DNA of 64,000 nt from an uncultured virus (IMG/VR IMGVR_UViG_2721755149_000018). Its lineage: Duplodnaviria > Heunggongvirae > Uroviricota > Caudoviricetes. Below are positions 85-52,599 of this stretch, one piece after another. The stretch lies in the IMG/VR virus record IMGVR_UViG_2721755149_000018, one strand, 5' to 3'. The position numbers were made by a program, and so were the translations under genes. Position 1 is the first letter of the stretch. The number at the start of each line of letters is the position of its first letter. Under the pieces are notes generated by a model. It did not search any database. It had not been told where the DNA came from and saw only the letters and a list, made by a program, of their open reading frames with translations.

Positions 85-627
85 ATGCCGTGTCCCGCAT
101 CGAAGCACGCACCAACCCCAACCCGACCCTCGGATACCAGTGGGAGATCGAAGCATGACCACACAACCCAACATGTATGTGCGGNNNNNNNNNNNNNNNN
201 NNNNNNNNNNNNNNNNNNNNNNNNNNNNNNNNNNNNNNNNNNNNNNNNNNNNNNNNNNNNNNNNNNNNNNNNNNNNNNNNNNNNNNNNNNNNNNNNNNNN
301 NNNNNNNNNNNNNNNNNNNNNNNNNNNNNNNNNNNNNNNNNNNNNNNNNNNCCTGGCAACATTTTGGAGTATTGCAAGCGTCAGCCGGTGTGGTCGTCGC
401 CGGAGCATGCGGCGGCTTGGCTGGATTGGGCGGCGGAGAATCCGTGGACGCCCGCGTTGGAGATGTATGTGGGTCGCCCGGTGCCGGGGATGCAGCCCGA
501 TTCGTATGATCTGGCGGATAAGGCGCGGTTGGTGGAGCGGAACCGCGCGTTTGTCGCTGAGCACCGCCAGGCGCTCGTTGAAGCGATTTTGGGTACGCGG
601 GCTGCACCGTTGGCTTTGGAGTCCTGA
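85..627 (+). CDS. hypothetical protein upstream of primase-helicase (start uncertain, interrupted by N gap)
   Basis: Open frame after the gap (NILEYCKRQPVWSS...APLALES) ending TGA at 627; 5' part hidden by Ns. Confidence 0.45.
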   Translation: MPCPASKHAPTPTRPSDTSGRSKHDHTTQHVCAXXXXXXXXXXXXXXXXXXXXXXXXXXXXXXXXXXXXXXXXXXXXXXXXXXXXXXXXPGNILEYCKRQPVWSSPEHAAAWLDWAAENPWTPALEMYVGRPVPGMQPDSYDLADKARLVERNRAFVAEHRQALVEAILGTRAAPLALES

Positions 628-5378: not shown

Positions 5379-6217
5379 GGTCGATGTCTCGGGTGTTTTG
5401 GGTGCGGTGGTTGGGTCCTGTCCAACGCTGGTGGTGGCGGGAACAACTCCTCGCGCAGGTGGTGCGGGACACGACCGGTGAGCCGCCGATGCAGCAGCGC
5501 AGGATTGTTGCTGGGGCTGCGGATAGGTTGGCGGCGATGACCGCGAACGTGGAACGAGCGAAGAGCGTGAGGAGCTCCAGGTGAGTGTTCATCGGGTGTG
5601 GAGTTGTGTGGAAACGTTCGACCTGTACGAGTGTGTGTGCGGGCAACGCTTCCCCGCGGGTGAGGATCTGGACGAGCATGTGAGCCTCGACCGGGCAGAG
5701 CTGGTGGAACTGTGACTGACGGAAGTTATTGCAGTAATGAGGCCGTGGACGATCAGATCGTGTGCACGCTCTGCGGCGCGGCTGTGTGGGAGTTCGGGCG
5801 TGATCGGCACAACGAGTGGCATCGTGCCGTTGAGGATGCGTTCAAGGCTCAGGCACGCGAGTTTTACCGCATGGTGGATGTGGTGTGCGGGAAGCCTCCG
5901 CGTGCCCCGTATCGGCGCCCGATGTCGGATGAGGAGTGCGAGCGGATGGCGGAGGTTCTGCGGGATCTCGGCATCAATGTCGACTGATCTCCGCGCATGC
6001 GTAATGCCCCCGGACCGTGTGGTTCGGGGGCTTTACACGTCTTTAGCGGTTAGTTGTCACGCCAGAACAATGAACCAGGTATGTCTGGCGTCCCGACGAC
6101 GGTCTCTCCGTCTGTCGTCTTGCCGCAGATGCAACGCATCTCTCGAACCGACTCGCCGCACCACCGGACTCCAGTCGGCCGCATTGTGTATTCGTGCCGG
6201 TGTTCCATGTTCTTCTC

Positions 6218-27301: not shown

Positions 27302-27341
27302 TTGCGGTGTACCTACATCATTTGTTACGGTGTACCCACAC
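27302..27341 (+). promoter_or_regulatory. promoter with two operators
   Basis: TTGCGG-N18-TACGGT; operators at 27307 and 27330. Confidence 0.75.
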
Positions 27342-28147: not shown

Positions 28148-28372
28148 ATGAGCCAGCACGAAACCGCAGTCGCATTCCACGCACTCAAGACCCGCCCCGA
28201 GTGGGGAATCGCAATCATCCGCAACACATACCGCAGCGAAGCCTTCTACGTCGCCCGGGTCAATCCCCAGAATCGATACCTCAAGATCAGCGAAGTGTTC
28301 ACGACCGAAGCGGAGGCCCGGTCGGCAGCCAACCGCGAATGGCTCGCAGACAACAACGCCTGCGCAGCCTGA
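28148..28372 (+). CDS. small hypothetical protein in promoter-terminator cassette
   Basis: GAAGGAG RBS; hairpin ~28388-28410. Confidence 0.75.
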   Translation: MSQHETAVAFHALKTRPEWGIAIIRNTYRSEAFYVARVNPQNRYLKISEVFTTEAEARSAANREWLADNNACAA

Positions 28373-28594
28373 CCCAACGCCCCCGGAGCCCCTGCCTGAT
28401 GGTGGGGGCTTCGTGCTGTCCGGGGCGGGTTTAGGTCTCGACCGGGACCGATTGTGCGCGTGTCGGTGTGTTGCGGTACACACGAACTGGCTGTGCGGAT
28501 ATAGTTGCACCAACTACCGTAAAGGTGTACAGTAAACGCATACACGGAAGGCCAGGAATGCGGCCCTACGTGGAACACACAGGAGACTTCAACC

Positions 28595-30146: not shown

Positions 30147-30404
30147 ATGACTGGGACTAGCTACAACGGCAACGCGAAGCCGTACCTCATGGACCGCCTG
30201 CACCGCCTCCACCCCGAACTCCACGCCAGGGTGGTCGCCGGCGAACTCACCGCCCATGCCGCAGCGGTAGAGGCCGGGTGGCGACCGAAGACCGTGAGCA
30301 TGCGTGTCGATGATCCACGGAAGCTGTCGGAGGCGATCCGCCGGCACGTGAAGCCTGAGGATGTTGCGGAGTTGGCGCGGATACTCGCCGCCGACGCTGC
30401 CTGA
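30147..30404 (+). CDS. small helical protein (start uncertain)
   Basis: RL....PEL...V.AGELTAHAAAVEAGWR. Confidence 0.6.
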   Translation: MTGTSYNGNAKPYLMDRLHRLHPELHARVVAGELTAHAAAVEAGWRPKTVSMRVDDPRKLSEAIRRHVKPEDVAELARILAADAA

Positions 30405-30414
30405 CAGAAAGTAG

Positions 30415-30447
30415 ATGCCCCGACCTGGTGTTCCGGGTCGGGGCATC
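30415..30447. terminator. likely bidirectional terminator between convergent genes
   Basis: GATGCCCCGACC...GGTCGGGGCATC. Confidence 0.65.
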
Positions 30448-30464
30448 GCTGTATCACTGTCTTG

Positions 30465-30788
30465 CTACTGAGGCTCGGGCGGTAATGCGATAGCCCCGAC
30501 GTCGAACTTCTGCCGCTTCGTGTACGAACCCTCACGCTTGAGCGTCTCGGTTTCCGCTGGATCTAGGCCCGACTCCTCTGCCGCAATCAGCGCAAAAGCT
30601 AGGGTGTCGGACAACTTGCGCATGTCCTCTGGCCTGATGTCGACTGGGCTGCCAGATAGTCCGGTCACCCGGATAGCGGTGATGCCGTCTGTTCGCTCGA
30701 CCCTGTCGATTGAGATGGTTGTGCCGTCGTCAAGGGAATGACTGCTGATGTGTTTGATGATGTTCGCCACTTGGCGATTGTGGCACAT
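30465..30788 (-). CDS. leftward hypothetical protein
   Basis: Best ORF filling the gap; convergent on the terminator. Confidence 0.55.
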   Translation of the reverse strand: MCHNRQVANIIKHISSHSLDDGTTISIDRVERTDGITAIRVTGLSGSPVDIRPEDMRKLSDTLAFALIAAEESGLDPAETETLKREGSYTKRQKFDVGAIALPPEPQ

Positions 30789-31151: not shown

Positions 31152-32036
31152 GTGAACGCAACTGAAACCACTGAAACCACTACGGAAACGAAGCCCGCCC
31201 CGCCGGCGCCCGGTCGAGCACTGCGCAAGGGTGAGAAGTTCATGTGGTTCAAGCAACTGCCAGGAACGAAGTTCAGTTCGTGCGACTTTGCGGTAGCACT
31301 CGCCATCGCAAACCGTACAAACGAAATGGGCAAGAATTCCTACCCTGCATTGAAGACGCTCGTGGAGGAGACCGGGCGTAGCAACGCGTCCGTCGTCCGG
31401 TCGATTGAGAACGTCATTGCGTCCGGCCTGATCGCCAAGGTTCGCACCGGCGGCGGGCGAGTGTCGAATGAGTACGAACTGCGGATCGTGGAACGGGTCG
31501 AATCGCCCTCGAATGGGTCTGTCGAGAAGCTGGATGTGACACCGGACGACGCATCGAGCAGTCTCACCGATGAGAGTGCTGCTGTCTCAGCCGTGGAGTC
31601 GAGCAGTCTCACCGATGAGACACGAACAGATCCAAAGCAACAGATCACTACATCAGATCAATTACTACGTTCCTCCGAAACAAGTGCCGGAGGTTTTGAC
31701 AAGCGTTCCACCGCTTCCGCGGAGGCGCCCAAGAAGAAGCCGAAGACACCTCTTGATCCACGGAACTTCCCTTCCGACTTCCACGCCAGTAGCGCGATTC
31801 AGAACGACGTGGATGTGCATGAGGCACTAAACAAGTTCTGCTGGCAGCATGCGGGTCGGCGCGCGGAGAACTGGGGCGCCAAGTTCGGCCAGTACATCAA
31901 GTCGTTCGCGAAGGATCGTGAAGAAATCGAGTTCCACGTTCCGAACACGGAGTATGACGACAATTTCGATTACGTCGCATACGTCGCGTCGTTGCGGACC
32001 GAGGAGGCTCGTCAGCGTGCTGCCGCTCGGGTTTAA
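31152..32036 (+). CDS. RepA/lambda-O-like replication initiator (winged HTH)
   Basis: SYPALKTLVEETGRSNASVVRSI...GLI.K...N.Y.L; internal iterons. Confidence 0.75.
   Translation: MNATETTETTTETKPAPPAPGRALRKGEKFMWFKQLPGTKFSSCDFAVALAIANRTNEMGKNSYPALKTLVEETGRSNASVVRSIENVIASGLIAKVRTGGGRVSNEYELRIVERVESPSNGSVEKLDVTPDDASSSLTDESAAVSAVESSSLTDETRTDPKQQITTSDQLLRSSETSAGGFDKRSTASAEAPKKKPKTPLDPRNFPSDFHASSAIQNDVDVHEALNKFCWQHAGRRAENWGAKFGQYIKSFAKDREEIEFHVPNTEYDDNFDYVAYVASLRTEEARQRAAARV
31554..31665. repeat. putative replication origin: iterons plus AT-richer CAGATC repeats
   Basis: TCGAGCAGTCTCACCGATGAGA at 31554 and 31599; CAGATC at 31627, 31641, 31654. Confidence 0.7.
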
Positions 32037-32136
32037 CTAAAGTGGTTACCGTGTGCAAGTGTGGTAACCTTGGAGTCGCGGCAGAGCTGTCTCAATCGCC
32101 AGCCGATCACCTTCCTCCACGTCACCAGGAGACGTC

Positions 32137-32445: not shown

Positions 32446-32627
32446 TTGGAGTCTGTTATGCGCGCTGAGGTTGCTTACCGGCTACGCAGGATCGCCGACC
32501 GGATCGCGCCGGCCCCAACACTCGCCACACGAACCCCGACGATCGGGGAACTGGATTATGTGTGGCGCTACCTGGAACGCGCCAAGGTTCCGTCGCTGGC
32601 GGAGCGGGAACTCATCTTAGGTATCCG

Positions 32628-32861
32628 ATGATCCCCATATGGTGGTCCATCCTGCTCGCCGCCATCGGCATCGCAGGCATCTACGTCACCACACGGAAAC
32701 TCTGGTGGGGATTCGCACTCGGACTCGCAGCGCAACTACTGTGGATCGCCTACGCGATTGCCACGGCCCAGTACGGGTTCATTCTGTCTGCGATCGGATA
32801 CGGCATCGTGTATTGGATCGGTGCCCGGAAGTGGTTCCAGGAACGCAACACCACGGTTTAG
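32628..32861 (+). CDS. small three-TM membrane protein, PnuC-like
   Basis: WWS..L...G..G.Y....K.WWG..LG...Q.LW..YA....QYGF. Confidence 0.6.
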   Translation: MIPIWWSILLAAIGIAGIYVTTRKLWWGFALGLAAQLLWIAYAIATAQYGFILSAIGYGIVYWIGARKWFQERNTTV

Positions 32862-32901
32862 CGAACCCGGTTACCGTCTACACGTGTGGTAAACTTGCGT
32901 T

Positions 32902-33243
32902 TGTTCGAGATGGTTGGGTGGAACGGTGGCGGATGTGAACGAACCTCACCTTTCAGGTTCAAAGCACACCCCACGATCCGTGACCAATCCCCGTGGTTGC
33001 GGGGAGGGTGTTGCTGCATCCGCCACCACCCGACCCGAACATTGACAACACAATAGAGACTTGGCAGTAGGCCCGCACACGCTGCGGGTTAGGAACTGCC
33101 ATGCTGGCCCGCTTCCTAGGACGTGCGCGGTCGGCTGCCGCCAGGGGCGCGTCTGGCCTCAACAACGCGCTTCACTACCCCGCCGCGAGGGACAGAGCGG
33201 AAGCGGCTTGGGTGGGATACCGCACGCATGCGCGTACGCCCAC
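32902..33243 (+). ncRNA. putative structured ncRNA cluster 1 (four folded modules)
   Basis: Nested complementary segments, no credible ORF, begins just downstream of TGG-TAAACT extended -10. Confidence 0.6.
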
Positions 33244-33286
33244 ACAAACCCAACAACACCAACACCAACACCAACAGGAAAACAAC

Positions 33287-33664
33287 ATGGGCGTACGAGT
33301 CCTCCCCTCCATCAACGACCGATTCGACATCTTCCACGACAACGCGACAGGATGGCACGTCGACGACGACGGACGCCTCCACATCCGCGGAAAACGTGGA
33401 AGCGACGGCGCCGCAGGCAACATCGCCACATACAACAAAGACATGTGGTTCTCCGTCGAGGACAACACCAGCCGCGTCGAAGCCTCGGAAAAGGTTGAGG
33501 AGTACCAGTCGCCCGGAACGGATGCCGCCAAGCCTGTAGTGGAATACACCACAGGCACGGTCGCTGTCGAGCATCCAACGGCAACGGTAATTAACAACAC
33601 TTACGAAGCGGATGCCCGTCACGCGGAACGACTGGCGAAGACGCAGCAGTATCGCGCAAGGTGA
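33287..33664 (+). CDS. hypothetical beta-rich protein between ncRNA clusters
   Basis: (CAACAC)n leader, AGGA RBS, ATG 33287. Confidence 0.7.
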   Translation: MGVRVLPSINDRFDIFHDNATGWHVDDDGRLHIRGKRGSDGAAGNIATYNKDMWFSVEDNTSRVEASEKVEEYQSPGTDAAKPVVEYTTGTVAVEHPTATVINNTYEADARHAERLAKTQQYRAR

Positions 33665-33814
33665 TAGCTACCCTGCCCCAGGGTTAAGTGGGGAAGTGGT
33701 CACGGTGCAGCCATCCGGACGGTTGGTGAACACCCGAAACCCCGGCAGCCAGCGCAACACTGCCGACAATTTCATAGCGGGCGTAGGGACTGGACCTCCA
33801 CTGGCGCCCGCCCT

Positions 33815-33887
33815 TGGTGCGTAGCTCAACTGGAAGAGCAGCGGATTCCAAACCCGCCGGTTGCAGGTTCGAGTCCTGCCGCATCAG
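33815..33887 (+). tRNA. trnW: tRNA-Trp(CCA)
   Basis: Acceptor TGGTGCG/CGCATCA, D stem GCTC/GAGC, loop TTCCAAA, T arm GCAGG-TTCGAGT-CCTGC; A31-C39 mismatch. Confidence 0.85.
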
Positions 33888-33891
33888 CAAA

Positions 33892-34147
33892 GACCGACAG
33901 TCGTACCCGCGATGGGTGGCTGGCACCTGAATTGACAGGGCGTGTGCACGACGACCGCGGAAACGCGTGCACACTCGGTCATCAACTTGGGGACGGAAAC
34001 GTGGACACCTTGTGTGTCTCCACCGTTCGAGTGAGGGCGCGCTGAACCCGACACTGAATGACGCTGGGTGCCCCGCAATGCGTCCCCGGCAGGAATGACG
34101 CCCACTGCGCAGCCCGCTTGGCTGCCGGCTTAGCTTCCAATGCCGGG
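33892..34147 (+). ncRNA. putative structured ncRNA modules between tRNAs
   Basis: Multi-way junctions closed by GACCGA/TCGGTC and GGGGACG/CGTCCCC. Confidence 0.55.
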
Positions 34148-34150
34148 TTA

Positions 34151-34262
34151 TGGTGTGTAGCTCAGCGGTAGAGCGTCGTAACGGCAGACGACAGGGTGTA
34201 AACCTCCCCAGCGGAGTCTCCCACTGTTGCGAACGTCGCAGGTTCGAATCCTGCCACACCAA
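34151..34262 (+). ncRNA. tRNA-like RNA with greatly extended anticodon arm
   Basis: Intact acceptor, D and T arms; 47 nt replace the 7-nt anticodon loop. Confidence 0.75.
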
Positions 34263-34517
34263 CGTAGACCGCCCCGGTACTCAGTGCCGGGGCATACGTA
34301 TATCCACAACTCAATACAGGAGCGGCGTGCAGCATGTTCGATGATCTCGACGACTACCGCCCCCACGTCGGGGACTTGGTGACCTTGCCCGACGTGCATC
34401 ACATCTGCCGCATCACCCGCATCCACAAAACACCTATCCCGTATTGCGAGGCAGAGGTGCGTGGTGTGCGGTTCGCCGTCAACCTCTCCACCATCCAACC
34501 CCACCAGGAGCACACCA

Positions 34518-36527: not shown

Positions 36528-36732
36528 CGGCGGTCTGTAGTGCCACATTCGCTGGTGGCCCCCGAAAGGGTTTGCAGCGCCGTGGTGGGGAAGAACGCTG
36601 CCATTTGTGCGCGCACCCCACCCGAGCCCGTGCACACGCCCGCTACCCGTGTGCACGGGCCAAAGCCATTTGCCACACACCTGTACGATAAACACAATCG
36701 AATACGCCGCCCCGGCGAGAAACCAGGACATC

Positions 36733-37722
36733 ATGCGCCACACCTTGACTGTGCTCGTGCTAGCACTTCTCGCCGGTCTCATCCAACTGTTAGCGGCACC
36801 ATCGGCGGGAGCCTGCCCGCAGACCGTGGTGATCGGTGTCGACGGCACCGGAAGCGTCGGGAACACGCCGAGTCTCGTCACCCAGCATGCCGATCCGTGG
36901 ATCGCGGAAGGTGCGGAGTTTCGGCGCATCGACTACCCCGGAAGCATTTGGCCCATCGGCCCGTATCCGTACGACCAGTCACGGCGTGACGGTATCGACG
37001 CAACCAAGGCTGAAATCAACGCTGTGCGCCGAGATTGCCCCGACACACACATACATCTAGTCGGCCATTCACAGGGCTCGGCAGTGGTCGGTGATGCTCT
37101 CGAAGAGCGCACCGCAGCCGGCGAATCCAACACCAACATCAGCGCAGACCTGTACGCCGACCCGCGCCACCCCGACACCGGCCTCGAAGTCGTCCTACCC
37201 GGCGCACTGCCCGGCTACACGCTCAAGGGAGAACGTGGCAGCACTGGCGAAGCGAAGGTGTATCAGCAGTGCGTCCAAGGCGACCCCATATGCGATTTTC
37301 CCCAGCCTCTCCAAGATCCGCTCGGACTCATCGACGCGCCCGCAGGGTACTGGTACAAGCACGGCTACCACCTCCCCGATTCACCCGAGCCCCGCAGTGG
37401 TACGCACGTCATCCCCGCAGGACCCATGACGCCGTTCATCCCGCCCGTGGAACAACGCCAGATCCCGTTCGCGCCCGAACTGCGTGACCTGGTCGACTAC
37501 GACGTGCCGACGCTGCCTGATGTGCCGCCGCTCCCGAACTTGACTGAGCCGTACGTGGAACGACCGTTGAGCGTCTACGTGCCCGATCGCGTGGAGCCGT
37601 ACGTGCCCGCGCCGATCCTCGATCATGTGCCGCCGCCGCTCCCGCAACTCCCGCCCCTGCCCGTCATCGAACTGCCCCCACTTCCCGCGCTACCCCAACT
37701 GCCTGCACTGCCCGCCCTGTAA
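36733..37722 (+). CDS. secreted cutinase/PE-PPE-like serine hydrolase with Pro-rich tail
   Basis: Hydrophobic signal peptide ending AGA; GHSQG; CVQGDPICD; HGY. Confidence 0.8.
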   Translation: MRHTLTVLVLALLAGLIQLLAAPSAGACPQTVVIGVDGTGSVGNTPSLVTQHADPWIAEGAEFRRIDYPGSIWPIGPYPYDQSRRDGIDATKAEINAVRRDCPDTHIHLVGHSQGSAVVGDALEERTAAGESNTNISADLYADPRHPDTGLEVVLPGALPGYTLKGERGSTGEAKVYQQCVQGDPICDFPQPLQDPLGLIDAPAGYWYKHGYHLPDSPEPRSGTHVIPAGPMTPFIPPVEQRQIPFAPELRDLVDYDVPTLPDVPPLPNLTEPYVERPLSVYVPDRVEPYVPAPILDHVPPPLPQLPPLPVIELPPLPALPQLPALPAL

Positions 37723-41709: not shown

Positions 41710-41852
41710 GCAGCACTTGACGCGCCGCATATCAATTCGAATTGAGGATGCGGGTTTGCTAAACTAGGTGGACAATCAAAGAAGTCGGCCCCGAACGGTG
41801 TCCTACCACCACCCGGGGCCTGGGCCGAGACCTATAGGAGAGGTGCCCGACC

Positions 41853-42698
41853 TTGAGTAGCCATGCTACATGCTCTGTCGACGGTTGCAACAATGACCAC
41901 CGCGCCCGCGGTCTCTGCAGTGGTCATTATCAGAGATTGCGCAACACTGGGGACGTGCAGGCAGATAAGCCATTGCGTCAGACTATCGCGCCAACCGAAC
42001 GGTCTGAAACGTGCATCGTCGATGGATGTGACCGCGAGTCCAGGCTAGCCAACCTGTGCGGTGCACACCATCAGCGGAAGATTAGGTTTGGCGATGTGCA
42101 GGCGCACATCCCGCTCCGTCGATCGGCAGCGAAGGATGACGGAACGCGCTGGTGTTCACGCTGCGAGGAACTGCACCCACTCGACGCATTTATGCCGGAC
42201 AGCAGAAACCCAAGTGGCCTATCTGGAGTTTGCCGCGATTCCGACCGTGAATACCGGCGCAAGAACTGGCATAAGTATGCGCCCTACAAGCGTGAGTGGT
42301 ACCACCGCAACAAGGAACATGTGAGGGCCAGGGAGCGTGCGCGTCGTGCCGCAATGGACCCAGAAGAGCGACGTCGCAAAGACCGGAAATGGCGCGAGAA
42401 CAATCCAGAGAAAGTTGCTGCGATAATCCGGCGCCAGAATGCAGTCCGCTCGAAGCGGGTCCGCAACGCGGTCGGTGAGGCAACTACCGCGCAAGTACGG
42501 GCGCGCTGGGACTACTACGGCGGGAAGTGCTGGATCTGTGGGCGCGACGCGACCGACATGGATCACGTCAAGCCGATCGCCGCCGGCGGAAGTAATTGGG
42601 CGTCAAACTTGAAGCCCGCATGCCGCTCATGCAACCGCGCCAAGAGCGCGAAGTGGCCGTTCAAGCCTGAGGATATCGCTCACATTTGGGCTGCCTGA
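41853..42698 (+). CDS. HNH endonuclease with repeated N-terminal Cys/His motifs
   Basis: C.VDGC...LC..H.QR twice; CWICG...DHVKP...GGSN...NL...CRSCN..K. Confidence 0.9.
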   Translation: MSSHATCSVDGCNNDHRARGLCSGHYQRLRNTGDVQADKPLRQTIAPTERSETCIVDGCDRESRLANLCGAHHQRKIRFGDVQAHIPLRRSAAKDDGTRWCSRCEELHPLDAFMPDSRNPSGLSGVCRDSDREYRRKNWHKYAPYKREWYHRNKEHVRARERARRAAMDPEERRRKDRKWRENNPEKVAAIIRRQNAVRSKRVRNAVGEATTAQVRARWDYYGGKCWICGRDATDMDHVKPIAAGGSNWASNLKPACRSCNRAKSAKWPFKPEDIAHIWAA

Positions 42699-51745: not shown

Positions 51746-52599
51746 ATGACTGCCGCTAAGACCCCCAAGCCGATCGCCAAGGCCGAAGCCAAGAAGTCCC
51801 GTTGGGCGCAGATGCGGGACGAAGCACGTGCCGCCGCCGAGGAGAAGCGCGCCAGCATCGCCCCCTACGAGTTCGACGGCACCGAGCCTGCCACCCTCGT
51901 CTACCCCCCGGACAGTGTGGATCAGGTGACCGCGCTGGCGCGGCTGCTCGACTCGAAGCTCGGTATGCGTGACGGCGAAATCCGCGACCTGTTCGAAGCG
52001 CTGCTCGGCAAGAGCTTCGCGCCGATCTGGGAAGTCATCAAGGACGAACCCGCCACCGTACTGTGGCCGCTGTTCGATGACATCAACAACCACTTCCAGG
52101 CTGTGCCTGCTGATGAGGTGGATGCGCAGGGGGGCGCCAACGGCTCGTAGCCCTCATCGAGGTCTACGGGCCGGAGATCGAATACGACCTGTTTGAAAGG
52201 GGCGTCGACCTACTCGATTTTTTTCGGGGTCGACGCCCCTGGTCGCAGTTTATGCGCCTGATCGAACGATTCCCCACCGAATCCAAGTTCAAGTCTGCAC
52301 TGTTGATGGACCCGGTACGTGCCGAAGCGTTGGCGCAACTCCCGGAGCCCGAGGAGCAAGAGCAACCACCGCTCACCCCTGAGGGGTACACGCGGGAAGT
52401 GTATTTGATGCTCTACCAAATCGACCTGCTGAAACAACTCACGTCGGTGATGGTGTCCGCGTTCGGTGGGAAACCGCCCGCGTTCAGACCGGAGCCGCGT
52501 CCGGTTACGGCGGAGCAGGCGATACGTCGGCGGGTGCAGGCGGAGCGCGACAAGGCGCAGATGCGTGATGTTTTGTCCACGTTGGGCGTGGATTTTTAA
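51746..52599 (+). CDS. tail assembly chaperones G (51746-52150) and GT (-1 frameshift to 52599)
   Basis: G GGG GGC heptamer at 52129-52135; -1 frame open RLVALIEVYGPEIEYDL. Confidence 0.85.

What the first reader, a model, noticed from the sequence alone, without database searches (positions are those of the whole stretch)
32902..33243. Promoter-proximal cluster of four tightly folded non-coding modules
Seen: a ~140-nt branched fold starts 6 nt after a TGG-TAAACT extended -10 (32890-95): TGTTCG/CGAACA (32902/33036), GGTTGGGT/ACCCGACC, GGTGGCGGATGT/GCATCCGCCACC, with inner hairpins GAACCT/AGGTTC, AGCACACCC/GGGTGTTGCT and TCCCCGT/GCGGGGA. It is followed by TGGCAGT..ACTGCCA (33062-33101), CCGCTTCC..GGAAGCGG enclosing GCGG/CCGC and GCGCGT/ACGCGC stems (33109-33206), and GTGGG..CCCAC (33212-43). 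Several stems contain G-U pairs, which favours selection on RNA rather than DNA. I do not recognise a known family. In a genome otherwise packed with overlapping genes, ~400 nt without an ORF is conspicuous.
Basis: partly seen in the sequence, partly recalled or inferred. Interest (0 to 1): 0.78.

Follow-up and report, generated by a model that had tools for sequence, protein, structure and literature searches.

The report
Promoter-fused structured phage leader RNA
An uncultured phage of mycolic-acid bacteria carries a conserved promoter that fires straight into a very stable, about 140-base branched RNA fold of no known family, probably one more of the abundant non-coding leader RNAs that such phages make and whose job is still unknown.

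Summary
Module 1 (32902-33041) is real: z -5.9 on the + strand against -3.9 on the - strand. It is also the strongest GC-corrected fold among 998 windows sampled across the 64 kb. Module 2 is a significant small hairpin. Modules 3 and 4 are no better than shuffles.

The stretch is non-coding by codon-position GC, and the downstream ORF starts at 33287. The promoter is supported. Its 29-nt motif occurs twice in the phage, both times just behind a stop codon. Its 12-nt extended -10 core stays identical in metagenome contigs whose flanks differ, always 5-6 nt before the first stem.

Contigs from four studies carry the element with few changes. Six of the seven listed changes sit in one apical hairpin and keep an alternative 10-bp helix (46 of 50 cells paired), with wobble pairs that work on the + strand only. 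There is no Rfam family and no match in 50,697 phage records.

Best reading: a new, promoter-fused, roughly 140-nt three-way-junction RNA heading a leader-ORF-tRNA unit. It is the same kind of thing as the Pleft leader RNAs of cluster A mycobacteriophages. Function and expression are untested.

The parts
32869..32897 (+). 29-nt promoter (or promoter/operator) motif GGTTACCGT-N6-GTGTGGTAAnCTTG. It contains the extended -10 TGGTAAACT (32887-32895) and starts 8 nt after the stop codon of the upstream gene.
   Evidence: There are two exact copies of the 23 specified bases in the window, against 0 expected in 100 shuffles. The 12-nt core GTGTGGTAAACT is identical in the loose ends of contigs with otherwise different flanks (table 7). 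TANNNT is the preferred SigA -10 in M. smegmatis (PMC6448022, passages read).
32044..32072 (+). Second copy of the same promoter motif, 8 nt after the stop of the replication-initiator gene. It is followed by an ordinary leader of about 60 nt to GTG 32137.
32902..33041 (+). Module 1: a 140-nt three-way-junction RNA. The stalk is P1 32902-07/33036-41, P2 32912-19/33028-35 and P3 32925-36/33016-27, 26 bp in all with two 5' bulges. The branches are hairpin P4 32941-46/32955-60 (loop CACCUUUC) and P5 32963-71/33006-15.
   Evidence: z -5.87 as RNA on the + strand. First of 998 windows after GC correction. Covered with few listed changes by contigs from 4 of 4 runs laid. No Rfam hit.
32978..33002 (+). 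P6, the apical hairpin supported by natural variation: 32978-32987 pairs with 32993-33002, loop UCCCC (32988-32992). In the window's own sequence it is nearly isoenergetic with the MFE apex.
   Evidence: 46 of 50 cells paired over 5 haplotypes, against 13-28 of 50 in six slid registers. Pair 32981-32999 is U.G in the window and C-G in the other four haplotypes. Pair 32982-32998 is G.U in two haplotypes and A-U in three. There are double changes at 32985/32995 and 32987/32993. Energies are -73.1 against -74.9, each about 45-50% of the ensemble.
33042..33061 (+). A/C-rich unpaired linker. It is variable in one relative (33051, 33052, 33054), and a mosaic breakpoint lies at about 33059.
   Evidence: tables 3 and 8, record 3 of X10.
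33062..33101 (+). Module 2: a two-tier GC-rich hairpin without a U tract. Its 3' arm holds an AGGA and the ATG at 33101.
   Evidence: z -3.66, 0 of 200 shuffles. 100% identical in X10 record 3.
33102..33243 (+). It is conserved in relatives but its fold is not above chance.
   Evidence: z +0.35 and -1.07; z +0.52 for 33104-33250. 33110 C>A in X5 breaks the proposed closing stem.
33254..33286 (+). (CAACAC)3-CAACAG repeat running into the Shine-Dalgarno AGGA (33276-33279), followed by a 7-nt spacer before ATG 33287.
   Evidence: read laying skipped 33241-33287 as a repeat.
33287..33664 (+). Orphan 125-aa ORF. Its N-terminal roughly 60 aa are shared with a 60-aa ORF in a Pseudarthrobacter genome.
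   Evidence: No Pfam or PHROG family.
33815..33888 (+). tRNA-Trp (CCA), probably in the same transcription unit.
34151..34262 (+). tRNA-shaped RNA with a 47-nt insertion in the anticodon arm.
   Evidence: Rfam tRNA model 52.1 bits. ARAGORN is silent. Cloverleaf with a long arm.
34271..34293 (+). GC-rich hairpin GCCCCGG...CCGGGGC, terminator-like, and the likely end of the unit.
   Evidence: Read. The function is inferred.

Best explanation
The element is a non-coding RNA element of an uncultured actinobacteriophage. A host-type (SigA-like) extended -10 promoter, one of two copies of a 29-nt promoter motif in this phage, starts transcription 6-8 nt downstream. That places the start at the first base pairs of a 140-nt three-way-junction RNA, module 1. 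The 5' end of the RNA is thus buried in a 26-bp stalk, which should make it long-lived. Two pyrimidine-rich loops (CACCUUUC and UCCCC) are presented at the top, one of them on a variable, bistable apical hairpin. Transcription continues through about 240 nt of GC-rich, not specially folded leader into a 125-aa orphan ORF, tRNA-Trp and a tRNA-like RNA. I think the main product is a stable leader-derived small RNA: module 1, kept intact or released by cleavage in the A/C-rich linker or in the stalk. That would be analogous to the abundant, stable Pleft leader RNAs of cluster A mycobacteriophages. I do not think it is a control device specific to the downstream ORF. Shown here: the fold statistics, the non-coding nature, the promoter-motif duplication and conservation, the mosaic distribution, and the variant pattern in P6. 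Inferred: the transcription start, stability, processing, and any action in trans.
For: Fold: module 1 has z -5.87 on + against -3.85 on - and ranks first of 998 GC-corrected windows. Non-coding: flat third-position GC over 32900-33230; ORF start at 33287 in 2 of 3 gene calls. The homolog in L002 starts 28 nt after the previous gene's stop, with no leader, and aligns from its own start. Promoter: the 29-nt motif occurs twice, both times in gaps just behind stop codons, against 0 expected. The first copy has a normal leader of about 60 nt, so module 1 is an addition rather than part of the promoter. In three different upstream contexts (the window; X5 record 8, whose loose end is the same as that of X10 record 2; X5 record 9) the 12-nt core is identical. 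The sequence on either side of it differs, and the distance to the first stem is 5-6 nt. Independence from the ORF: in X12 record 7 the stretch 32769-33240 is kept (19 differences) and followed by other sequence. In X10 record 3 the stretch 33059-33240 is 100% identical behind a different upstream sequence. RNA-level selection on the + strand: 6 of the 7 listed variants in module 1 lie in the arms of P6, and the helix stays at 9-10 of 10 pairs in all 5 haplotypes. Two wobble pairs become Watson-Crick and two pairs show double changes. Precedent: in L5, D29 and StarStuff the roughly 500-nt non-coding region between Pleft and the first gene gives the most abundant, stable small RNAs of the infection (PMC5712189, passages read). 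Rhodococcus phage WC1 has three highly transcribed non-coding regions (PMC10986025, passages read).
Against: There are no expression data of any kind. Only 5 haplotypes exist, they are closely related, and 33 difference rows were not shown. X12 record 7 has 8 unlisted changes in 32769-33240 and X10 record 2 has 2, so pair counts for those two haplotypes are incomplete. The 33008 G>A change (X8, X12) breaks a P5 pair without a listed compensation. In P6, pair 32985-32995 is broken in 3 of 5 haplotypes. The near-identity of 33055-33426 in relatives whose neighbouring gene differs by about 10% looks like recent mosaic exchange, so conservation by itself does not prove selection. The fold is almost as exceptional with DNA parameters (z -6.13 on +, -5.07 on -). 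No clear terminator follows module 1. The X10 breakpoint at 33059 groups module 2 with the downstream leader, not with module 1. No complementarity to the rest of the window exceeds chance (18 11-mers against a mean of 16.6), so no target is in hand.
Confidence: 0.42

Rival explanations
1. The element acts purely in cis as a leader device. Module 1 would work only on its own transcript, in one of three ways: as a 5' stabiliser (a flush 5' helix blocks 5'-end-dependent RNases); as an RNase III processing stalk of the kind in T7 early leaders and rrn operons; or as a put-like polymerase modifier that carries RNA polymerase through the GC-rich hairpins ahead of the ORF and the tRNAs.
For: The RNA would start at the base of a 26-bp stalk with two bulges, which is long enough for RNase III by textbook knowledge. 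No convincing terminator or second promoter lies between module 1 and the ORF. Several terminator-like GC hairpins follow: module 2 and 34271-34293. There is a 10-nt perfect complement between 33233-33242 and 33288-33297, which covers the start codon (I15), and it enters the MFE of 33210-33300. That suggests translational control somewhere in the leader. Cleavage sites are enriched in 5' UTRs in M. smegmatis (PMC6448022).
Against: The element is kept where the downstream ORF is replaced (X12 record 7). The same promoter works with a plain 60-nt leader 825 nt upstream. About 240 nt of leader without above-chance structure separate module 1 from the ORF. The 10-nt complement is about what one expects once or less per 1.1 kb (my estimate), and 33210-33300 folds at only z -1.94.
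Confidence: 0.28
2. The element works at the DNA level. The 26-bp imperfect inverted repeat with an 81-nt centre would act as DNA: as a single-strand initiation signal or origin-associated hairpin near the replication-initiator gene, as a recombination hot spot that creates the mosaic joints, or as a MITE-like mobile insert.
For: With DNA parameters both strands fold exceptionally well (z -6.13 and -5.07). The replication-initiator gene (31152-32036, PHROG replication initiation families) lies about 870 nt upstream. Mosaic breakpoints sit at the edges of the element. Terminal inverted repeats are present (I1 and I4).
Against: The window holds one copy only. In every context seen the element is joined to the same -10 core at the same distance, which a transposing unit would not show. 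No direct repeat flanks it beyond 2 nt (read). No iterons or AT-rich stretch are present. The wobble pairs in P2, P3 and P6 are mismatches on the - strand, and the variants improve the + strand helix.
Confidence: 0.1
3. The element has no function of its own. It would be a fortuitous or decaying inverted repeat riding inside a block (about 32900-33500) that has recently spread among related phages by recombination.
For: 33055-33426 shows no listed change in X8, and 33059-33240 is 100% identical in X10, whereas the upstream gene differs at 22 listed places in 181 nt. That pattern is typical of a recent exchange. Modules 3 and 4 are not above chance. Other windows of this phage also fold strongly, with GC-corrected z of -3.1 at 30341 and -3.0 at 52101.
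Against: Module 1 is the top outlier of 998 windows. The promoter core is conserved as an island between diverged bases. The variable patch in P6 keeps its helix.
Confidence: 0.12
4. Part of the gap is coding. ATG 33101 would give a 187-aa isoform of the downstream protein, so that modules 2-4 are an N-terminal extension rather than leader.
For: The frame is open from 33101 to 33664, with AGGA 5 nt upstream. One source's gene call uses it (P0003).
Against: Third-position GC is flat over 33101-33230. The extension is low-complexity. The Pseudarthrobacter homolog aligns from its own start with the 125-aa form. The AGGA and the ATG lie inside the module 2 helix. In X12 the stretch is followed by unrelated sequence.
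Confidence: 0.08

Closest known systems
Pleft leader non-coding RNAs of cluster A mycobacteriophages (L5, D29, StarStuff)
   Same: Both are phages of mycolic-acid actinobacteria. Both have several hundred non-coding bases directly behind a promoter and ahead of the first gene. In L5, D29 and StarStuff these give the most abundant, stable small transcripts of the infection, with function unknown (PMC5712189, abstract and passages read).
   Different: There is no sequence similarity: blastn at word size 11 of 32860-33290 against 50,697 phage records found nothing. Here the promoter lies in the middle of a one-directional genome after the replication genes, not at a genome end under repressor control. 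The fold is one compact 140-nt three-way junction. Abundance, stability and toxicity are untested here.
Highly transcribed non-coding regions nc_1 to nc_3 of Rhodococcus phage WC1
   Same: They are intergenic non-coding regions of an actinophage, among the most highly transcribed loci, and one of them lies next to tRNAs (PMC10986025, passages read).
   Different: No homology was found. No structure is described in the passages I read.
Phage T4 small stable RNAs (species 1 and 2, rnaC/rnaD) and the ROOL/GOLLD RNAs found near phage tRNA genes (recalled, no paper read)
   Same: They are structured stable RNAs of unknown role encoded in the same transcription unit or neighbourhood as phage tRNA genes.
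   Different: The T4 RNAs lie inside the tRNA cluster and are cut out by tRNA-processing enzymes. ROOL and GOLLD are 500-800 nt, and their Rfam models give no hit here. Here a protein gene lies between the RNA and the tRNAs.
6C / B11 small RNA of Actinobacteria
   Same: It is an actinobacterial small RNA that binds targets through C-rich hairpin loops without a chaperone (PMC6486639, title and abstract from the search listing only). Module 1 also shows pyrimidine-rich loops, UCCCC and CACCUUUC.
   Different: No match to any Rfam family, which would include 6C if it is in release 15 as I recall, even at E up to 10. There are 4 Cs rather than a longer C run. The loops sit on a long stalk and three-way junction instead of two simple hairpins. 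No target was found.
RNase III hairpins in phage early leaders (T7 R0.3, lambda N leader) and rrn processing stalks (recalled)
   Same: They are promoter-proximal helices of 20 bp or more, interrupted by bulges, at the head of a multi-gene or stable-RNA transcript.
   Different: Cleavage is untested here. The stalk encloses a branched 81-nt domain rather than a simple loop or a whole rRNA. No similarity to four actinobacterial rrn loci was found beyond chance 9-14-mers.

Membership tests
Any Rfam 15 family (4227 models) | Covariance-model score at or above the family's gathering score | tested here: not met
   The whole window gives only two tRNA hits. In 32600-34400 at E up to 10, the only hit inside the finding is mir-1251 at 20.9 bits against a cut-off of 81, which is chance.
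tRNA / tmRNA | Detected by ARAGORN or by the Rfam tRNA or tmRNA models | tested here: not met
   ARAGORN finds only tRNA-Trp at 33815-33888. No tRNA or tmRNA hit falls in 32862-33286.
6C RNA | Match to the family model, and two hairpins with long C-rich loops (the feature is recalled) | tested here: not met
   No hit at E up to 10. The loops are UCCCC and CACCUUUC on a branched fold.
Cluster A mycobacteriophage Pleft leader RNA | Sequence homology to the L5/D29 right-end non-coding region | tested here: not met
   No blastn or megablast match in 50,697 phage records.
Cluster A mycobacteriophage Pleft leader RNA | Several hundred non-coding bases between a promoter and the first gene | tested here: met
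   A 425-nt gap that is non-coding by third-position GC. The promoter motif is duplicated and conserved.
Cluster A mycobacteriophage Pleft leader RNA | Very abundant, stable small transcripts that are toxic when cloned | not testable with these tools
   No RNA holder was listed among the 20 runs.
Riboswitch (including the NAD+-II pnuC motif, considered because a PnuC-like gene is adjacent) | Match to an aptamer model, and a short switching P1 upstream of the regulated gene | tested here: not met
   No Rfam hit. The RNA lies downstream of the PnuC-like gene. The closing helices total 26 bp.
MITE / MPME-type mobile element | Terminal inverted repeats | tested here: met
   Inverted repeat I1: 26-nt arms, 77% complementary.
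MITE / MPME-type mobile element | Several copies at unrelated sites with target-site duplications | tested here: not met
   One copy in the window and none in VanLee, Morgana or a Pseudarthrobacter genome. It is always joined to the same -10 core. No flanking direct repeat is seen.
HK022 put-type antiterminator RNA | Promoter-proximal RNA that makes RNA polymerase terminator-resistant in cis | not testable with these tools
   Only the position fits. No model or sequence of put was available to compare.
RNase III processing stalk | Helix of about two turns or more with internal loops | tested here: met
   P1-P3 comprise 6 + 8 + 12 bp with 4-nt and 5-nt bulges.
RNase III processing stalk | Cleavage by RNase III | not testable with these tools
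   This needs an enzyme assay or 5'/3'-end mapping.
RNA anti-CRISPR (solitary CRISPR repeat mimic) | Likeness to a CRISPR repeat of the host | tested here: inconclusive
   The CCCCG...CGGGG hairpin recalls type I-E repeats (recalled). No Rfam CRISPR-DR model hits at E up to 10. The host and its arrays are unknown, and variant 32993 G>A weakens this hairpin.

The most novel reading that the evidence does not exclude
Module 1 would be the founding member of an undescribed class of trans-acting phage RNA. Its features would be a promoter-fused start, a long RNase III-type stalk for stability or maturation, and a three-way junction that presents two pyrimidine-rich, anti-Shine-Dalgarno-like loops. 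One loop sits on a fast-evolving, bistable apical hairpin whose variation sets target specificity. The phage would use it to reprogram host translation or to decoy a host RNA-binding defence or RNase, and the cassette would be traded between phages as a self-contained unit of promoter plus RNA.
Probability: 0.18. Interest if true: 0.72.

Novelty: new member of a known kind. Interest (0 to 1): 0.45.

Why it matters
Abundant promoter-proximal non-coding RNAs are seen in every actinophage transcriptome examined so far, including L5, D29, StarStuff and WC1, and none has a known function or a defined structure. This element gives a compact, statistically solid fold with a defined start, some natural variation and a portable promoter. 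It could be cloned and tested in Mycobacterium smegmatis or Gordonia. If it proves to be a stable trans-acting RNA, it would be a handle on how these phages use RNA against their hosts. If it is a cis stabiliser or processing stalk, it would be a useful expression part for mycobacterial genetics. As it stands it is a good candidate for a new RNA motif. It is not a demonstrated new mechanism.

Tried and rejected
Expression: no RNA holder was listed among the 20 runs.

Relatives in cultured phages: megablast and blastn of the region found none in 50,697 records, and tblastn of the 125-aa ORF found none. Megablast of 20000-44000 gave only a 233-nt MRE11-gene match and a 79-nt tRNA-Trp match, in 10 records. 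The nearest cultured kin by portal protein are Gordonia phages VanLee (45% identity) and Morgana (54% over 76% of the protein). They have no comparable gap after their PnuC-like genes.

IMG/VR: two protein-based scans and three exact-pattern scans from modules 1, 2 and 3 found nothing. A pattern of promoter core plus the start of P1 gave 4 loci. None of them matches the module-1 covariance model at the motif (best hit elsewhere 14.2 bits), so they are chance matches.

Other collections: genome contigs gave one partial protein homolog without a leader, L002. Metagenome contigs gave L003, identical to the window over 1101 of 1101 nt, and L004, a spurious hit inside a repetitive 2283-aa ORF on the other strand.

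Covariance model R1 (module 1 with P6): there was no second copy in the window, VanLee, Morgana or a Pseudarthrobacter genome. None was found in the 151 actinobacterial genomes sampled at E up to 0.1. That is a sample and does not show absence.

rrn-leader/boxA mimicry of the linker: the paper I opened gives no sequence in its text (PMC10218544). blastn-short against four actinobacterial 16S loci with flanks gave only chance 9-14-mers. The idea is not supported, but mycolata rrn leaders were not specifically available.

Target search: exact complements of 11 nt or more between 32900-33245 and the rest of the window number 18, against a mean of 16.6 in 29 random regions.

The sigma-70 scan did not call this promoter because it lacks a -35 match at 16-18 nt. 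The protein atlas gave nothing above the noise level for the ORF.
Full report
WHAT THE WINDOW IS. The window is part of an uncultured tailed phage. Almost all genes lie on the + strand. The longest contig on record holding the 125-aa protein is 85,587 bp. A lysin B-type cutinase/PE-PPE protein (36607-37722) points to a host with mycolic acids. The tRNA-Trp is 86% identical to that of several mycobacteriophages. The nearest cultured relatives by portal protein are Gordonia phages VanLee (45% identity) and Morgana (54% over 76% of the protein). The finding lies after a replication-initiator gene (31152-32036) and a small PnuC-like membrane gene (about 32631-32861; PHROG 2421; 348 phage records by tblastn). 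It lies before an orphan ORF, two tRNA-type genes, a DNA methylase, lysin B and the terminase.

THE OBSERVATION. Module 1 (32900-33043) folds at -74.9 kcal/mol, z -5.87, and no shuffle in 200 folds as well. The reverse strand gives -68.7, z -3.85. Among 998 windows of 144 nt sampled across the + strand, the module-1 window is 4th by raw energy and 1st once GC content is regressed out (residual z -3.6). Module 2 is a significant small hairpin (z -3.66). Module 3 is not (z +0.35; 129 of 200 shuffles fold at least as well). Module 4 is not either (z -1.07; 27 of 200). Without module 1 the region is unremarkable: 33044-33300 gives z -1.36 and 33104-33250 gives z +0.52. With DNA parameters module 1 is equally exceptional on both strands (z -6.13 and -5.07), so folding energy alone does not separate RNA from single-stranded DNA.

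CODING OR NOT. An ATG ORF at 33101-33664 reaches into the gap, and one source calls it as a 187-aa protein (P0003). Two other gene calls start at 33287 (P0001, P0002). Third-position GC is flat from 32900 to about 33230 and becomes strongly periodic only from about 33260. A 60-aa homolog in a Pseudarthrobacter genome aligns from its own start with the short form and has no leader. I take 32862-33286 (425 nt) as non-coding and give the long isoform about 8%.

THE PROMOTER. The consensus scan missed this promoter because there is no -35 at standard spacing. Two observations nevertheless support it. First, the 29-nt string GGTTACCGT-N6-GTGTGGTAAnCTTG occurs twice in the window, at 32044-32072 and 32869-32897. 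Both copies are on the + strand and each starts 8 nt behind a stop codon, against 0 expected in 100 shuffles. The first copy is followed by an ordinary leader of about 60 nt, a Shine-Dalgarno sequence and GTG 32137. Second, in contigs from other metagenomes the 12-nt core GTGTGGTAAACT is identical, while the bases on both sides of it differ, and the first stem of module 1 begins 5-6 nt after it (table 7: three contexts counting the window). TAAACT fits TANNNT, the preferred SigA -10 in M. smegmatis, where the median leader is 69 nt and 15% of leaders exceed 200 nt (PMC6448022, passages read). That a TG one base upstream marks an extended -10 is my own knowledge. A start 6-8 nt downstream of the -10 (my knowledge) would fall at about 32901-32903, on the first pairs of P1. 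That is inference.

RELATIVES. No cultured phage, IMG/VR contig or sampled actinobacterial genome holds anything similar. The one metagenome locus fetched is identical to the window. The index of sequencing runs listed 20 holders from 9 studies, covering groundwater, bioreactor, compost, wastewater, sludge and soil. I laid contigs of four runs from four studies.

In X5, a contig covers 32946-33700 with 5 differences. Two further contigs join at 32902 and 32912, behind different upstream sequences that share only the promoter core.

In X8, one 48-kb contig spans the whole stretch with 60 differences and 9 gaps. Of the 39 differences listed, 22 lie in 181 nt of the PnuC-like gene, 7 in module 1, 3 in the linker, and none between 33055 and 33426.

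In X10, 33059-33240 is 100% identical behind an unrelated upstream sequence.

In X12, 32769-33240 is kept (19 differences, 11 of them listed) and then followed by other sequence. A second copy of 33178-33203 lies about 730 nt further on in that contig.

The tool did not show 33 difference rows, so the counts for X8, X10 and X12 are lower bounds. The picture is a mosaic cassette. The promoter plus module 1, the rest of the leader, and the ORF can each be found with other neighbours. The very low divergence of 33055-33426 looks like recent exchange, so conservation alone is weak evidence of constraint.

WHAT THE VARIANTS SAY ABOUT STRUCTURE. Seven variant positions are listed in module 1: 32981, 32982, 32985, 32987, 32993, 32995 and 33008. 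No change is listed in the stalk or P4, so those helices are neither supported nor contradicted. In the minimum-energy fold of the window's sequence, four of the seven hit pairs and break them. Folding the variant haplotypes shows another apex: 32978-32987 pairs with 32993-33002 around the loop UCCCC.

In the window this conformer costs only 1.8 kcal/mol more than the minimum (-73.1 against -74.9), and each holds about half of the ensemble. Across the five haplotypes it keeps 9, 9, 10, 9 and 9 of 10 pairs, 46 of 50 cells, against 13-28 of 50 in six slid registers. Pair 32981-32999 is U.G in the window and C-G in the other four. Pair 32982-32998 is G.U in two and A-U in three. Pair 32987-32993 goes from A/G (unpaired) through U.G to U-A. 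Pair 32985-32995 is C-G in the window, G.U in X8 (a double change), and unpaired in the other three.

These wobble pairs are valid only on the + strand. This is suggestive, not proof, because the haplotypes are few and related, and some of their changes are unlisted. Against the model, 33008 G>A (X8, X12) breaks a P5 pair, and 33110 C>A (X5) breaks the proposed closing stem of module 3.

HOW IT MOST LIKELY WORKS. I commit to the following, with about 0.4 confidence. The promoter fires into module 1, so the 5' end of the RNA is locked in a 26-bp stalk (P1-P3, with two bulges on the 5' strand). The stalk carries a three-way junction with a fixed hairpin (loop CACCUUUC) and a variable, bistable hairpin (loop UCCCC). 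Such an RNA should be long-lived. It would accumulate either as the 5' part of the leader-ORF-tRNA transcript or as a released species of 100-200 nt, as the Pleft leader RNAs do in L5, D29 and StarStuff (PMC5712189). It is kept where the ORF is replaced, and the same promoter works elsewhere with a plain leader. Together these argue that it is not a regulator specific to the ORF.

The main rival (about 0.28) is a purely cis role, as a 5' stabiliser, an RNase III site or a polymerase modifier. The absence of a clear terminator after module 1 and the string of GC hairpins ahead of the tRNAs favour this. A 10-nt perfect complement between 33233-33242 and the start-codon region 33288-33297 hints at translational control in the distal leader, but it is close to chance expectation.

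DNA-level readings (origin hairpin, recombination site, MITE) get about 0.1. They are weakened by the single copy, the fixed coupling to the promoter and the strand-specific wobbles. A functionless hitch-hiking repeat gets about 0.12.

COMPARISON WITH WHAT IS KNOWN. No Rfam family matches, so the element cannot be filed under 6C, a riboswitch, tRNA, tmRNA, Y RNA, ROOL, GOLLD or a CRISPR repeat. By position and likely behaviour it is a leader-derived phage non-coding RNA. That is a known kind in actinophages (PMC5712189; PMC10986025) whose members have no defined structure or function. It shares no sequence with them. Notes from earlier sessions of this scan describe similar promoter-proximal structured leaders next to tRNA slots in unrelated phages. 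They are leads that I did not test.

VERDICT. The element is real, well placed and new as a sequence and structure. It is ordinary as a kind of thing until expression and function are measured.

Noticed in passing
window 34151-34262 (+): A tRNA-shaped gene scores 52 bits with the Rfam tRNA model but has a 47-nt insertion in the anticodon arm. ARAGORN does not call it. It folds as a cloverleaf with normal acceptor, D and T arms and one long extra arm. It could be an intron-bearing or decoy tRNA.
   Followed up: partly
window 32044-32072 (+): A second exact copy of the 29-nt promoter motif lies 8 nt after the stop of the replication-initiator gene. GGTTACC and GGTAACC within it form a 7-bp inverted repeat, so the motif may also be an operator.
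   Followed up: partly
window 33233-33242 and 33288-33297: A 10-nt perfect complement links the 3' arm of the last hairpin to the start-codon region of the 125-aa ORF. There is also a near-repeat, CATGCGCGTACG / CATGGGCGTACG. This may be a translation switch.
   Followed up: partly
window 33254-33277: A (CAACAC)3-CAACAG tandem repeat sits immediately before the Shine-Dalgarno sequence. The read-laying tool treated it as a repeat, and contigs of relatives break there.
   Followed up: no
window 33103-33136 and 33178-33203: Two short pieces of the leader recur elsewhere in relatives' contigs with unrelated flanks. The 34-nt piece is in a second 36-kb contig of run X8. The 26-nt piece occurs a second time about 730 nt downstream in the X12 contig. 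This is unexplained.
   Followed up: no
window 17823, 27330, 28093 (+): The 12-mer GTGTACCCACAC occurs three times. At 27330 it follows a terminator-like hairpin and precedes a gene start. It may be a second promoter or start-site motif of this phage.
   Followed up: no
window 30341-30484, 52101-52244, 5893-6036, 28357-28500 (+): These are the other strongly folding 144-nt windows after GC correction (z -3.1 to -2.7). The one at 28357 lies in a 222-nt gap that holds a terminator-like hairpin and a promoter-like AGTAAAC.
   Followed up: no
window 41853-42698 (+): An HNH endonuclease gene sits between the large terminase and an exonuclease/portal block. It is preceded in its 143-nt gap by TGCTAAACT (41757-41765), one of only three TGNTAAACT sites in the window. 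It is probably a mobile insertion with its own promoter.
   Followed up: no
window 33287-33664; L002 9944-10126: The N-terminal roughly 60 residues of the orphan 125-aa protein (motif ATGWHVDDDGRLH) recur as a stand-alone 60-aa ORF in a Pseudarthrobacter genome, next to a metallophosphatase-like gene. No family is known.
   Followed up: partly
window 185-590 and several other places: The window contains runs of N (masked stretches). None lies near the finding.
   Followed up: no
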